Shown here: positions 15,735 to 56,805 of the stretch, piece by piece
How positions within the stretch are numbered: position 1 is the first letter of the stretch
Layout: every line of letters starts with the position of its first letter
Virus record (IMG/VR): IMGVR_UViG_3300044701_003563
DNA from: a virus
Direction: 5' to 3' (one strand)
DNA: 64,000 nt
Translations under genes and position numbers: made by a program
Notes under the pieces: generated by a model
What the model saw: only the letters and a program-made list of their open reading frames with translations
What the model was told of the DNA's origin: nothing
Databases searched by the model: none

Positions 15735-15811
<77 letters not shown>

Positions 15812-15886
15812 TGGAGCCCCCTATCGGATTTGAACCGATGACCAACGGTTTACAAAACCGTTGCTCTACCACTGAGCTAAAGAGGC
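15812..15886 (-). tRNA. tRNA-Thr(TGT), CCA encoded
   Basis: GCCTCTT...AGGGGGCTCCA; anticodon arm ACGGT-TTTGTAA-ACCGT; abuts tRNA-Pro with no spacer. Confidence 0.95.
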
Positions 15887-15970
15887 AATTGGGGGCGTCC
15901 GTATAAACTGGACCTTTTGTACTCCCCCTTTGTCTTAGGAGATTGCAACCGATTTCTCAGTTACTTGTAT

Positions 15971-15999
15971 ACTATAAGACACTTGTGGTTTTTTGTCAA
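15971..15999 (-). promoter_or_regulatory. Sigma70-type promoter for the Thr/Pro tRNAs
   Basis: TTGACA-N17-TATAGT. Confidence 0.8.
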
Positions 16000-16003
16000 G
16001 TCC

Positions 16004-16288
16004 TCAATCTTTTGGAACGAGGTCTGGGTAATCAACTTCAATTGGAAATAAACATGGGTGTGCTTCTTCTGCTATTAAATATGAAGAAGACATATAAAGA
16101 TCATGTGGTGTGAATACTTTATATTTATTAGCTTCCATCTCTAAAGTTGGATCCCAAAGAGAGATTTCTGGAATATCATCGAATGTATAAGGATAGTTTT
16201 CAATAAAATACATTTTAACAACGTATTTTTTTGATCCAGGTTCTTGTGGATCATACCAGCAAAAACAAGTACTTACTCGGTATATCAT
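16004..16288 (-). CDS. Hypothetical cyanophage protein
   Basis: 94-aa ORF preceded by T4-type late promoter TATAAATA (16313-16320). Confidence 0.7.
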   Translation of the reverse strand: MIYRVSTCFCWYDPQEPGSKKYVVKMYFIENYPYTFDDIPEISLWDPTLEMEANKYKVFTPHDLYMSSSYLIAEEAHPCLFPIEVDYPDLVPKD

Positions 16289-16312
16289 AAGATTCTTGGA
16301 TCTTATTTTAAG

Positions 16313-16320
16313 TATTTATA
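16313..16320 (-). promoter_or_regulatory. T4-type late promoter
   Basis: Exact TATAAATA immediately 3' of tRNA-Leu(TAA). Confidence 0.65.
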
Positions 16321-16321
16321 G

Positions 16322-16404
16322 TAGGACGAGGGGGACTTGAACCCCCACAGGCAATGCCCGACAGATTTTAAGTCTGGTGTGTCTACCGATTCCACCACCG
16401 TCCC
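16322..16404 (-). tRNA. tRNA-Leu(TAA)
   Basis: GGGACGG...TCGTCCTA; anticodon loop CTTAAAA; long variable arm. Confidence 0.93.
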
Positions 16405-16408
16405 GAGG

Positions 16409-16480
16409 TGCTTCTGCAGGGACTTGAACCCCGTTCACTCCGTTATAAGCAGAGGGCCTTAACCTATAGGCGACAGAAGC
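16409..16480 (-). tRNA. tRNA-Ile(TAT)
   Basis: GCTTCTG...CAGAAGCA; anticodon arm CTCTG-CTTATAA-CGGAG; T-loop GTTCAAGTC. Confidence 0.88.
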
Positions 16481-16497
16481 ATTTCTCGTATATGACA

Positions 16498-16526
16498 ATC
16501 ATAGCAGGTCTTGCTTTGATTGTCAA
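16498..16526 (-). promoter_or_regulatory. Sigma70-type promoter inside the tRNA cluster, embedded in an inverted repeat
   Basis: TTGACA-N17-TATGAT; TGACAATCA...TGATTGTCA palindrome. Confidence 0.75.
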
Positions 16527-16527
16527 G

Positions 16528-16608
16528 TGCCCCTAGTCAGATTTGAACTGACAAACCCGTAGGCGGTTGATTTTGAGTCAACTGTGTTTACCGTTTCACC
16601 ACAGGGGC
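16528..16608 (-). tRNA. tRNA-Leu(CAA)
   Basis: GCCCCTG...TAGGGGCA; anticodon arm GTTGA-CTCAAAA-TCAAC; long variable arm. Confidence 0.92.
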
Positions 16609-16684
16609 TGGTGCTCCTTGAGGGGATCGAACCCACCTGATACCGATTATGAGTCGGGTGCTTTCACCAGATAGCTAAAGGAGC
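16609..16684 (-). tRNA. tRNA with CAT anticodon (probably Ile2/lysidine type, possibly Met), CCA encoded
   Basis: GCTCCTT...AAGGAGCACCA; anticodon CCGA-CTCATAA-TCGG; C4-G69 and C5-G68 pairs as in TilS substrates; lacks the initiator 3 G-C anticodon-stem pairs. Confidence 0.88.
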
Positions 16685-48129: not shown

Positions 48130-48168
48130 ATTTTACACAAAAAAAGAGAGGGAGTCAAGTCCCTCTCT
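48130..48168 (-). terminator. Intrinsic terminator overlapping a sigma70 promoter
   Basis: GAGAGGGA-CTTGAC-TCCCTCTC-T7; the loop supplies the -35 of TTGACT-N17-TAAAAT. Confidence 0.8.
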
Positions 48169-48174
48169 AATTTA

Positions 48175-48282
48175 TTAAGCAACTTGTGGTTGCTTTGCCA
48201 TATTCAATTGTGCTTCTTTAAGTTTTTCGTCTTTTTCTTTTTTATCTTTAATAATCTGAAGAGGATTTAATTTGACAATCAT
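48175..48282 (-). CDS. Small basic peptide (35 aa) translationally coupled to DUF4278
   Basis: MIVKLNPLQIIKDKKEKDEKLKEAQLNMAKQPQVA; ATGA start/stop overlap. Confidence 0.6.
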   Translation of the reverse strand: MIVKLNPLQIIKDKKEKDEKLKEAQLNMAKQPQVA

Positions 48283-48437
48283 TTTGCCACCTCCCCATTA
48301 TTGCAAGGACGATAGGGAATTCCACGGTATGTATTTTGTGGATGTGCTGGTGCATGTGTTTTAGAATACCACTTACGATATTCTTCTTTAGGTGTGTCGG
48401 TATTATACTGACAACCCCTATAGGTTGCTTGTGACAT
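48279..48437 (-). CDS. DUF4278-family small protein (two YRG motifs)
   Basis: MSQATYRGCQY...NTYRGIPY; strong SD (TAAGGAG); directly downstream of glutamine riboswitch aptamers. Confidence 0.85.
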   Translation of the reverse strand: MSQATYRGCQYNTDTPKEEYRKWYSKTHAPAHPQNTYRGIPYRPCNNGEVAK

Positions 48438-48469
48438 TAGGTTTTCTCCTTAGTTTTTAGGTTAAAGAG

Positions 48470-48640
48470 CGTTCCTTCAGTCGGCTTTTGCGTCTATTTT
48501 GCACTCCTTCGGAGATATTTGCTTCACCTCCCAAATCAAATCATTTCGGATCTGCTTTGGCAATGAGTATGCATTAACCCGAGAAACAATCAATTGTGCT
48601 TGTAAACAAGTTAGAATGAGTGCTTCCATAGATGAACGAT
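48470..48640 (-). ncRNA. Glutamine riboswitch aptamer 2 (glnA / Downstream-peptide family) with a greatly enlarged P2 loop
   Basis: ATCGTTCA-TCTAT...ATAGA-CGCAAAAGCCGACTGAAGGAACG. Confidence 0.8.
48477..48629 (-). CDS. 50-aa ORF nested within riboswitch aptamer 2
   Basis: MEALILTCLQAQLIVSRVNAYSLPKQIRNDLIWEVKQISPKECKIDAKAD*. Confidence 0.55.
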   Translation of the reverse strand: MEALILTCLQAQLIVSRVNAYSLPKQIRNDLIWEVKQISPKECKIDAKAD

Positions 48641-48641
48641 C

Positions 48642-48693
48642 CGTTCCGAGTCGGCTTACTTCCGTTTGCTATTTGCAAATAGCAAATGAACGT
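48642..48693 (-). ncRNA. Glutamine riboswitch aptamer 1
   Basis: ACGTTCA-TTTGCTATTT/AAATAGCAAA-CGGAAGTAAGCCGACTCGGAACG. Confidence 0.8.
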
Positions 48694-48699
48694 AGAGGC

Positions 48700-48751
48700 A
48701 TTCTAATCCTCATTATTTATGTAGTCAAGTCAGTTTGTAACACTTGTTACA
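48700..48751 (-). promoter_or_regulatory. Sigma70 promoter with an embedded late promoter and an upstream NtcA-like box
   Basis: TTGACT-N17-TAGAAT (48728-48700); CATAAATA in the spacer; TGTA-N8-TACA at 48736-48751. Confidence 0.65.
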
Positions 48752-56654: not shown

Positions 56655-56767
56655 TAAAAAGTAGTAAGACCATCAGGGACATGGTGGAGTTACTATGCTC
56701 CCCGCACCCTCAGCGGGGATATGAGAGACGTATTTACCCTCCCTTAGGTCTCGGTTAACGGGAGCAC
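56655..56767 (-). ncRNA. Structured psbA 5' UTR, PhotoRC-II-like RNA motif
   Basis: ACCGAGACC...GTCTCTCATATCCCCGCTGAGGGTGCGGGGA...ACCAT-GTCCCTG-ATGGT hairpins upstream of cyanophage psbA. Confidence 0.65.
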
Positions 56768-56805
56768 AATCTTTAAGAAACTTTACATTCCTTAACTTGT
56801 TGATG

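What the first reader, a model, noticed from the sequence alone, without database searches (positions are those of the whole stretch)
48470..48640. A protein-coding ORF inside a glutamine riboswitch aptamer
Seen: two tandem aptamers precede a DUF4278 gene. In aptamer 1, P2 is a short perfect hairpin. In aptamer 2, the P2 stem (TCTAT/ATAGA) encloses about 130 nt. An ATG starting in the 5' P2 strand opens an uninterrupted 50-codon frame (48629-48477, MEALILTCLQAQLIV...KECKIDAKAD*). This frame reads through the 3' P2 strand and conserved core and stops at the TGA of GCCGAC-TGA-AGGAACG. Established: glutamine riboswitches (glnA and Downstream-peptide classes) control gifB/DUF4278-type genes. Inference: aptamer folding and translation of the nested ORF should be mutually exclusive. 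This would give a two-output switch (nested peptide when Gln is low, DUF4278 when high) or a ribosome-dependent reset of the riboswitch. The ORF is absent from the ORF track.
Basis: partly seen in the sequence, partly recalled or inferred. Interest (0 to 1): 0.87.

Follow-up and report, generated by a model that had tools for sequence, protein, structure and literature searches.

The report
Gene nested inside phage glutamine riboswitch
In this cyanophage a real 50-codon gene sits inside one hairpin of a double glutamine-sensing RNA switch, so the sensor cannot be folded while that gene is being translated; hundreds of related phages share the layout and I found no paper that describes it.

Summary
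On the minus strand, a glutamine-riboswitch RNA (48692-48469) heads a small operon with a DUF4278/IF17-like gene. One of its hairpins (UCUAU/AUAGA) closes around a 50-codon ORF (48629-48477).

- **The ORF is a real gene.** It matches phrog_504. It has 190 protein clusters and 343 confirmed loci in IMG/VR. dN/dS is 0.11 in frame, against 0.74 and 2.9 in the shifted frames. In an ORF-blind sample, all 50 distinct inserts are open through the whole insert.
- **The RNA constraint persists.** The last five codons, which are also sensor core, do not vary even at third positions.
- **The two units are nested, not side by side.** Following earlier notes of this scan, I tested and confirmed this. They share one P3 helix, and the linchpin pair joins unit 1 to the 3' end of unit 2 (G-C 79, C-G 61, no exceptions).
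- **The gene overlaps the sensor.** It starts in the inner P2 strand, reads through the shared P3 strand and stops in the outer core.

The proposed glutamine-dependent choice between the nested gene and the DUF4278 gene is inferred, not shown. This scan found the same layout before in at least 80 other genomes. I found no published description.

The parts
48737..48750 (-). NtcA-type box GTA-N8-TAC, 3 nt after the speD stop (context)
   Evidence: Read. Such a box lies within 130 nt upstream in 133 of 156 distinct related leaders, against 4.4% of shuffles.
48700..48728 (-). Sigma-70-type promoter TTGACT-17-TAGAAT. The predicted start falls at the first bases of the sensor.
   Evidence: The same layout is seen in the related leaders printed.
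48688..48692 (-). Outer P1, 5' strand (CGUUC)
   Evidence: RNAalifold pairs it with the last GAACG in 30 insert-free relatives. The sequence never varies, so the partner is assigned from the linchpin and P3 covariation.
48665..48686 (-). P2 hairpin of the outer core (perfect 9-bp stem, UGCA loop)
   Evidence: All 5 pairs tested in this helix show compensatory changes in relatives.
48657..48665 (-). Outer J2/3 (ACGGAAGUA), with linchpin G at 48662
   Evidence: G or C at this site covaries perfectly with the base after the last GGAACG: G-C 79, C-G 61, of 140. In one search the same pair is CG 18, GC 12.
48649..48656 (-). Shared P3 helix, strand 1 (AGCCGACU)
   Evidence: It pairs antiparallel with 48486-48479. 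The end pairs covary, and the short 5-bp versions in relatives pair perfectly. Local P3 hairpins fail.
48634..48646 (-). Inner P1: GAACG, loop GAU, CGUUC. G48641 is the partner of the inner linchpin C48490.
   Evidence: Predicted in the MFE fold and by RNAalifold. The C-G combination is present in 133 of 140.
48493..48632 (-). Inner P2. Closing helix UCUAU (48632-48628) with AUAGA (48497-48493). Extension GCACUC (48623-48618) with GAGUGC (48506-48501). The helix encloses the gene.
   Evidence: The closing helix is kept in every insert-bearing relative, with many compensatory forms. The extension is 95% paired.
48477..48629 (-). Nested gene, 50 codons plus TGA, family phrog_504
48487..48493 (-). 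Inner J2/3 (ACGCAAA), with C48490; it is also part of codons 46-48
   Evidence: Codons 46-48 (GAC GCA AAA) are almost invariant, third positions included, in 56 ORFs.
48479..48486 (-). Shared P3 helix, strand 2 (AGCCGACU). It carries the end of codon 48, codons 49-50 and the first base of the stop codon.
48469..48478 (-). Outer J3/1 GAAG (48478-48475), outer P1 3' strand GAACG (48474-48470), linchpin C48469
48446..48469 (-). Hairpin hiding the ribosome-binding site: CUCUUUA (48469-48463) with UAAGGAG (48452-48446)
   Evidence: MFE fold. The same hairpin is predicted in all leaders of this linker type.
48279..48437 (-). DUF4278/IF17-like gene (52 aa, two YRG motifs), phrog_5049
   Evidence: Of 147 distinct downstream genes in relatives, 142 carry YRG.
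48175..48282 (-). Third small ORF (35 aa, basic), start overlapping the DUF4278 stop (ATGA)
   Evidence: The same overlap is present in 79 of 147 relatives.
48145..48168 (-). Intrinsic terminator ending the micro-operon

Best explanation
Shown. The stretch lies within a sensor of about 224 nt (48692-48469) that starts a three-gene micro-operon of a T4-like cyanophage. The sensor is a nested double glutamine-riboswitch RNA.

- The outer core has the canonical glnA-type consensus. It is assembled from the 5' pieces of 'aptamer 1' (P1 strand, P2, ACGGAAGUA) and the 3' pieces of 'aptamer 2' (GAAG, GAACG, linchpin C).
- The inner core sits at the other end of a shared P3 helix, in permuted order.
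- The inner core's P2 closes around a genuine 50-codon gene that is under purifying selection.
- The gene's AUG lies in the P2 5' strand, four bases after the inner P1 strand. Its last five codons and stop codon are the inner J2/3, the 3' strand of the shared P3 and the first bases of the outer J3/1.

Inferred. A ribosome that starts on or runs through the gene must open inner P1, P2 and the shared P3. Its footprint also covers the outer P1 strand. Conversely, the folded sensor buries the AUG, which has no Shine-Dalgarno sequence.

The most likely consequence is as follows. At high glutamine the fold is locked. The nested gene is then shut, and the linchpin pair G48662-C48469 pulls the first base out of the CUCUUUA/UAAGGAG hairpin, so the IF17-like gene is translated. 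At low glutamine the fold breathes and ribosomes load on the nested gene, which keeps the sensor open. The function of the peptide is unknown.
For: **The gene is real.**
- It has 190 clusters in the protein database and 343 tblastn-confirmed loci in IMG/VR.
- It matches phrog_504.
- Indels are in frame.
- Third codon positions vary most.
- dN/dS is 0.11 in frame, against 0.74 and 2.87 in the shifted frames.
- All 50 distinct inserts from an ORF-blind sample are open through the whole insert.
- AlphaFold2 gives a helical hairpin at pLDDT 84.

**The RNA constraint is intact.**
- Codons 46-48 and 50 are almost invariant even at third positions, although dS is about 1.25. Codon 49 varies only through pair-preserving changes in the shared P3 helix.
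- P2 is kept, with compensatory forms.

**The architecture is nested.**
-, compared.

**The AUG is always in the P2 strand.**
- In all 98 distinct insert-bearing inner hairpins examined it lies 3-9 nt after CGUUCA. It also holds in the 35 unit-1 and 53 unit-2 inserts of the ORF-blind sample.

**The expression platform is present.**
- The hairpin over the ribosome-binding site abuts the linchpin C.
- The published gifB model describes glutamine-ON control through that C (PMC6212724; PMC11477058).
Against: - No binding or expression data exist for this RNA.
- The inner core departs from the consensus (ACGCAAA instead of ACGGAAGUA; a single C instead of GAAG), so it may not bind glutamine.
- P1 never varies, so its partners are assigned indirectly.
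- The hairpin over the ribosome-binding site is weak (about -4.5 kcal/mol) and is predicted only for this linker type.
- The stop codon lies 39 nt before the next AUG, so termination could feed the DUF4278 gene instead of opposing it.
- Presence and absence of the insert is patchy among close relatives. This also fits a passenger cassette.
Confidence: 0.55

Rival explanations
1. Translational coupling rather than opposition. Ribosomes finishing the nested gene at UGA 48479 sit on the outer P1 strand, right next to the hairpin over the ribosome-binding site. They would help open it or re-initiate 39 nt downstream. The nested gene and the DUF4278 gene would then be made together, and the sensor would mainly set how many ribosomes enter the first gene.
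For: - The stop falls at this same core position in 46 of 50 distinct inserts.
- In P-RSM4, three small genes follow each other with short gaps made of sensor core.
- The third ORF is coupled by an ATGA overlap.
Against: - That UGA/UAA is also present in insert-free sensors, so it need not have been selected for coupling.
- Two nested-ORF families stop before or inside the 3' P2 strand.
- The DUF4278 gene has its own strong AAGGAG site.
Confidence: 0.2
2. Passenger cassette. P2 loops are far from the ligand pocket and tolerate insertions, so small phage genes have settled there and are shuffled by recombination between the repeated core sequences. On this view there is no selected regulatory cross-talk.
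For: - Clean presence/absence at one site among relatives.
- Among 120 junction loci the states are: neither hairpin 41, inner only 37, outer only 20, both 13.
- The phrog_13397 family occurs in either hairpin.
Against: - Every one of the inserts starts its ORF inside the P2 5' strand, with no Shine-Dalgarno site of its own, and fills the whole loop.
- The ORF overlaps invariant core. Expression therefore cannot be independent of folding, even if the arrangement began as a passenger.
Confidence: 0.17
3. Two independent side-by-side aptamers, as the first reader drew them, each with its own P1, P2, P3 and linchpin.
For: - Each unit alone gives a sub-threshold Rfam hit of 32-34 bits.
- P1 sequences are identical, so side-by-side P1 pairing is equally possible on sequence alone.
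- Unit 1 can fold first during transcription.
Against: - Under the tandem drawing the linchpin pairs are only 60% paired and the local P3 pairs 60-69%.
- Under the nested drawing the linchpin pairs are 100% paired with compensatory changes, and the shared P3 end pairs covary.
- The 5-nt P3 strands found in relatives cannot form local hairpins.
Confidence: 0.05
4. The insert is a non-coding structured RNA domain, and the open frame is incidental.
For: A 6-bp extension of P2 is conserved.
Against: - dN/dS is 0.11 in one frame only.
- Indels are in frame.
- All inserts are open in the ORF-blind sample.
- RNAalifold finds no conserved structure in the remaining ~110 nt.
Confidence: 0.02

Closest known systems
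Glutamine-I riboswitch (glnA RNA, Rfam RF01739), e.g. the Synechocystis gifB/IF17 leader (PMC6212724)
   Same: - Same conserved core pieces: CGUUCA, ACGGAAGUA, GAAG, GGAACG and the linchpin C.
- Same kind of downstream gene (DUF4278/IF17-like).
- An NtcA-type box lies upstream.
- A pairing that hides the ribosome-binding site starts at the linchpin C.
   Different: - The canonical core is split between two units.
- A second, permuted core shares its P3 helix.
- One hairpin holds a translated gene.
- It is phage-borne.
- Rfam's gathering score is not reached.
Tandem glnA RNAs noted in marine metagenomes (Weinberg et al. 2010, PMC2864571)
   Same: Two glnA-like units lie in a row before one gene. 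These are probably the same RNAs.
   Different: They were described only as tandem. The shared helix, the cross-wired linchpin pairs and the nested genes are not mentioned in the papers I could read.
Group I introns carrying homing-endonuclease ORFs in peripheral loops (from my own knowledge)
   Same: A protein-coding ORF sits in a peripheral loop of a structured, functional RNA and sometimes runs into the structural elements. Folding and translation compete.
   Different: There is no splicing and no mobility enzyme. The RNA is a metabolite sensor, and the ORF encodes a 50-aa helical protein.
Leader ORFs inside sensing mRNA leaders, e.g. mgtL in the Salmonella mgtA Mg2+ leader (from my own knowledge)
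   Same: A translated ORF lies within a ligand-sensing leader. Ribosome position decides which RNA structure forms.
   Different: Those are short sensor peptides whose amino-acid sequence matters little beyond a few codons. Here the product is a conserved protein family (phrog_504) under purifying selection.

Membership tests
Glutamine-I riboswitch (RF01739) | Match to the Rfam covariance model at the gathering score (35 bits) | tested here: inconclusive
   - There is no hit at the gathering threshold.
- Unit 1 scores 32.6 bits, E 2.8e-5.
- Insert-free unit 2 of S-CREM1 and S-PM2 scores 33.5 and 33.3 bits.
- The S-CREM1 authors report one 99-nt, 44-bit hit spanning both units.
- The model cannot span the 130-nt insert.
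Glutamine-I riboswitch (RF01739) | P1 CGUUC/GAACG with the flanking conserved A and GAAG | tested here: met
   Read directly. GAAG is present only at the 3' end of unit 2, which fits the outer core.
Glutamine-I riboswitch (RF01739) | J2/3 with two G residues, and the long-range linchpin G-C pair (G23-C60 in the solved RNA; PMC11477058, PMC6212724) | tested here: met
   ACG[G/C]AAGU of unit 1 against the base after GGAACG of unit 2 gives G-C 79 and C-G 61, with no exception. One search gives CG 18 and GC 12.
Glutamine-I riboswitch (RF01739) | P2 and P3 helices supported by covariation | tested here: met
   P2 of both cores covaries. P3 exists, but as a helix between the two units rather than a local hairpin.
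Glutamine-I riboswitch (RF01739) | Selective binding of L-glutamine | not testable with these tools
   This needs in-line probing, ITC or a similar assay on the 224-nt RNA.
DUF4278 / IF17-like proteins (PF14105) | Match to the Pfam model at its cut-off (25.3 bits) | tested here: inconclusive
   The score is 21.6 bits, E 2.9e-4. The protein has two YRG motifs. It matches phrog_5049 at E 3.7e-10. Of 147 downstream genes in relatives, 142 carry YRG.
phrog_504 (phage protein family of unknown function) | Match to the PHROG profile | tested here: met
   The window's peptide scores E 5.5e-5. Marine variants nested at the same site score 9e-9 to 8e-13.
Protein-coding gene | Purifying selection in one frame, with in-frame indels and no disruptions in homologues | tested here: met

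The most novel reading that the evidence does not exclude
A ribosome-gated, two-output riboswitch. A nested double glutamine sensor can assemble only when the gene inside its own hairpin is not being translated, and when folded it buries that gene's start codon. Glutamine level and ribosome traffic together would then decide between two phage proteins, the nested peptide and an IF17-like glutamine-synthetase regulator. In the tandem leaders sampled from cyanomyovirus contigs, about 60% use this design, with interchangeable gene cassettes in either hairpin.
Probability: 0.4. Interest if true: 0.9.

Novelty: new variant of a known kind. Interest (0 to 1): 0.8.

Why it matters
- **A new arrangement for riboswitches.** Riboswitches are treated as non-coding leaders. 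Here a metabolite sensor and a translated gene occupy the same nucleotides. This gives a natural system in which ribosome traffic and ligand binding compete on one RNA.
- **A redrawn topology.** The published 'tandem' glutamine riboswitch is redrawn as a nested, P3-sharing double core. That changes how cooperative binding should be modelled.
- **Riboswitches are not rare in phages.** A 2017 survey found only two glutamine aptamers in cyanophage genomes and concluded that phages rarely use riboswitches (PMC5473149). This locus class is in fact common in cyanomyoviruses. It is missed because the cores are split and interrupted.
- **A link to host nitrogen control.** The locus joins phage infection to host nitrogen signalling through an NtcA-type box, glutamine sensing and an IF17-like protein.

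Tried and rejected
- **My own covariance model.** I built it from 42 insert-free inner units. It scores insert-free relatives at 65-68 bits, but it aligns only the 3' half in the window, because the search cannot span the insert. It therefore gives no formal whole-sensor score.
- **Fold and feature searches for the peptide.** Foldseek of the AlphaFold2 model against the PDB gave nothing below E 7. The ESM Atlas gave only unnamed clusters. Pfam gave nothing.
- **Search in cellular genomes.** A scan for the peptide found none. A DNA pattern for the whole nested layout found only two MAG contigs, which are probably mis-binned phage DNA, and no cyanobacterial genome.
- **Local P3 hairpins and side-by-side linchpin pairs.** Both were tested and rejected.
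- **A signal-peptide or lipoprotein reading of the N-terminus.** I rejected this for the window's peptide, because only seven residues precede the Cys and the model shows a helix from residue 2.
- **Papers not held.** Ames & Breaker 2011 and Ren et al. 2015 could not be read. What I say about the solved structure comes from PMC11477058 and PMC6212724.
- **Literature searches.** Searches for an ORF inside an aptamer found nothing.

Full report
**What the window is.** The record is an IMG/VR virus contig of 127,876 bases, estimated 61% complete. It carries psbA/psbD-type neighbours, a PhotoRC-II RNA and a tRNA cluster. Its closest named relatives are T4-like cyanomyoviruses of the family Kyanoviridae. 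Everything described below lies on the minus strand.

**Checking the observation.**
- CGUUCA lies at 48638-48633.
- UCUAU (48632-48628) pairs with AUAGA (48497-48493) and encloses 130 nt.
- The ATG at 48629 lies inside the 5' strand of that helix.
- The frame stays open for 50 codons and stops at TGA 48479-48477, within GAC-UGA-AGGAACG.
- Rfam at its gathering threshold reports no glutamine riboswitch anywhere in the window.
- With E-value reporting, unit 1 (48694-48638) matches RF01739 at 32.6 bits, E 2.8e-5.
- The gene that follows (48437-48279) matches Pfam DUF4278 at E 2.9e-4 and phrog_5049.

**Is the ORF a gene?** It is.
- *Presence and absence in relatives.* An alignment with five isolates shows that S-PM2 and S-CREM1 have the same leader without the insert. 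DSL-LC03, DSL-LC02 and S-SRM01 have the insert. In all four insert-bearing phages the frame is open (50, 51, 50 and 55 codons). One indel of 3 nt is in frame, and the other frames are closed.
- *How widespread it is.* The peptide has 190 clusters in the protein database, nearly all of 50 residues. It has 343 tblastn-confirmed loci in IMG/VR. It belongs to phrog_504.
- *Selection.* In 56 distinct 50-codon ORFs, variability across codons 6-40 follows the coding pattern: third position 1.23 bits, first 0.83, second 0.50. In the 50 closest of these, pooled Nei-Gojobori dN/dS over codons 3-44 is 0.11 in frame, against 0.74 and 2.87 in the shifted frames. dS is about 1.25 and therefore near saturation, so the ratio is approximate.
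- *An ORF-blind sample.* To avoid selecting for intact ORFs, I fetched 120 loci by a 17-nt RNA junction motif that lies upstream of the insert. All 50 distinct inserts found this way are open in this frame through the whole insert. In 46 the stop falls at the same core position. Frames +1 and +2 are closed in 50 of 50. Only 2.3% of shuffled inserts are open.
- *Structure.* AlphaFold2 with 46 homologues gives a helical hairpin (residues 2-20 and 25-38, mean pLDDT 84) with a poorly ordered tail. That tail includes the five residues dictated by the RNA core.
- *RNA structure in the insert.* RNAalifold finds no conserved structure in the insert beyond a 6-bp extension of P2.

**Is the RNA still a sensor?** It appears to be.
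- Codons 46-48 and 50, which are also sensor core, barely vary in 56 ORFs, even at third positions. Synonymous sites elsewhere are close to saturation.
- Codon 49 (GCC) does vary. It sits in the shared P3 helix, where changes keep the pairing.
- The P2 closing helix is kept in every insert-bearing relative, in many compensatory forms.
- Insert-free versions of the same unit score 33-34 bits on RF01739.

**The topology had to be revised.** Earlier follow-ups of this scan on other genomes said that the two units are nested and share a helix. I tested this on my own loci.
1. The eight bases after ACGGAAGUA in unit 1 pair antiparallel with the eight bases before GAAGGAACG in unit 2.
   - The end pairs covary (A-U, G-U, G-C; and U-A, G-C, A-U).
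   - Relatives with 5-nt strands pair perfectly in four different compensatory versions.
   - Those 5-nt strands cannot form local hairpins.
2. The variable base in ACG[G/C]AAGU of unit 1 pairs with the base after the last GGAACG of unit 2. The counts are G-C 79 and C-G 61, with no exception in 140 distinct RNAs. The base after the GGAACG of unit 1 is almost always G whichever variant is present, and it matches the C of ACGCA in unit 2 in 133 of 140.
3. On 30 insert-free RNAs, RNAalifold itself predicts the outer P1 and the inner GAACG-loop-CGUUC hairpin.
4. In the formal pair count, the nested drawing gives 100% pairing at both linchpin pairs, with compensatory changes at the outer one (the inner pair never varies), and covarying P3 end pairs. 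The side-by-side drawing gives 60% at its linchpin pairs and 60-69% at its local P3 pairs.

P1 never varies, so its partners follow from these neighbouring pairs and not from covariation of P1 itself.

The result is as follows.
- The outer core has the full canonical consensus: CGUUCA, P2, ACGGAAGUA, P3, GAAG, GAACG and the linchpin C.
- The inner core is in permuted order. Its P1 is closed by the GAU loop. Its J2/3 (ACGCAAA) and J3/1 (a single C) are non-canonical.
- This also explains why the S-CREM1 authors obtained one 99-nt, 44-bit RF01739 hit across both units.

**What the gene overlaps.** In the window the gene lies in P2 of the inner core.
- Its AUG is four bases after the inner P1 strand.
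- Codons 46-48 carry the inner J2/3.
- The last base of codon 48, codons 49-50 and the U of the stop codon form the 3' strand of the shared P3 helix.
- The GA of the stop codon begins the outer J3/1.
- The outer P1 strand and the linchpin C48469 follow within a ribosome footprint.

Translation therefore cannot coexist with either core. This is a structural argument, not a measurement.

**The expression platform.**
- C48469 is the first base of CUCUUUA, which pairs with UAAGGAG, the ribosome-binding site of the DUF4278 gene. The pairing appears in the MFE fold and in all leaders of this linker type.
- This matches the published proposal for gifB, in which glutamine binding captures that C and frees the ribosome-binding site. 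There the switch turns translation of the IF17 gene on (PMC6212724; PMC11477058).
- I therefore think the most likely behaviour is a glutamine-dependent choice. When folded, the IF17-like gene is on and the nested gene is off. When unfolded, the reverse holds.
- Two rivals remain open: coupling by termination and re-initiation, and a passenger cassette with unavoidable but unselected interference.

**How general it is.**
- Among the 120 junction loci, 41 have no insert, 37 have a gene in the inner hairpin, 20 in the outer hairpin and 13 in both. The other nine are cut off at a contig end or could not be classified.
- Other families occupy the outer hairpin. These are phrog_6471, phrog_13397 and a 67-69-residue family with a signal-peptide-like start.
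- One of them (phrog_6471) ends on the UAA inside ACGGAAGUAAG.
- phrog_13397 occurs in either hairpin.
- Named isolates have the layout:
  - P-SSM2 has gene PCMG_00321.
  - P-RSM4 and S-TIM4 have PRSM4_205 and PRSM4_206, listed as 'T4-like gene clusters 429 and 430'.
- No cyanobacterial genome carries it in the scans I could run.

**Novelty.**
- The papers I could read describe glnA RNAs as sometimes tandem (PMC2864571).
- They report only two glutamine aptamers in cyanophage genomes (PMC5473149).
- They annotate the S-CREM1 element as a plain riboswitch (PMC9964418).
- None mentions a gene inside the sensor or a shared helix.
- Ames & Breaker 2011 and Ren et al. 2015 were not available to me.
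- This scan has reported the same layout before in at least 80 other genomes, so the window is one more member of that class.

Noticed in passing
window 48737-48750 (-): An NtcA-type box, GTA-N8-TAC, lies just upstream of the -35 element. Such a box lies within 130 nt upstream of the sensor in 133 of 156 distinct related leaders, against 4.4% of shuffles. It mostly starts 60-70 nt before the sensor.
   Followed up: partly
window 48695-48711 (-) and 48714-48720 (-): An inverted repeat (GAGG...CCTC) brackets the -10 hexamer. A repeat like this, with different covarying arm sequences, is found in 132 of 156 related leaders. A late-promoter-like ATAAATA sits just upstream. If late transcripts start there, the repeat could be a 5' hairpin. 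From memory, it resembles the promoter-stem-loop cassettes of T4-type phages.
   Followed up: partly
L207:470-676 and 701-877 (P-RSM4); L045, L131, L145, L195 and others: Other gene families nest in the outer hairpin. These are phrog_6471, phrog_13397 and an unassigned 67-69-aa family with a hydrophobic N-terminus. phrog_6471 ends on the UAA inside ACGGAAGUAAG. phrog_13397 occurs in either hairpin, which suggests cassette swapping.
   Followed up: partly
window 48175-48282 (-) and 48145-48168 (-): A 35-aa basic ORF overlaps the DUF4278 stop (ATGA) and is followed by a strong terminator. The same overlap is present in 79 of 147 relatives.
   Followed up: partly
L208 (JBIPLY010000594.1) and L209 (JANRKK010000030.1): The only 'cellular' genomes with the nested layout are two MAG contigs binned as Acetobacteraceae and Alphaproteobacteria. 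These are probably mis-binned cyanophage DNA.
   Followed up: no
window 56685-56776 (-) and 15738-16684 (-): There is a PhotoRC-II RNA at 74.5 bits and a cluster of six tRNA genes.
   Followed up: no
window 48469 versus relatives with GGAACG-G: The two linchpin versions (G-C and C-G) go with different linkers to the DUF4278 gene. Only the G-C type, with its CUCUUUA linker, shows a clear hairpin over the ribosome-binding site in simple folding. The expression platform of the other type is unexplained.
   Followed up: partly
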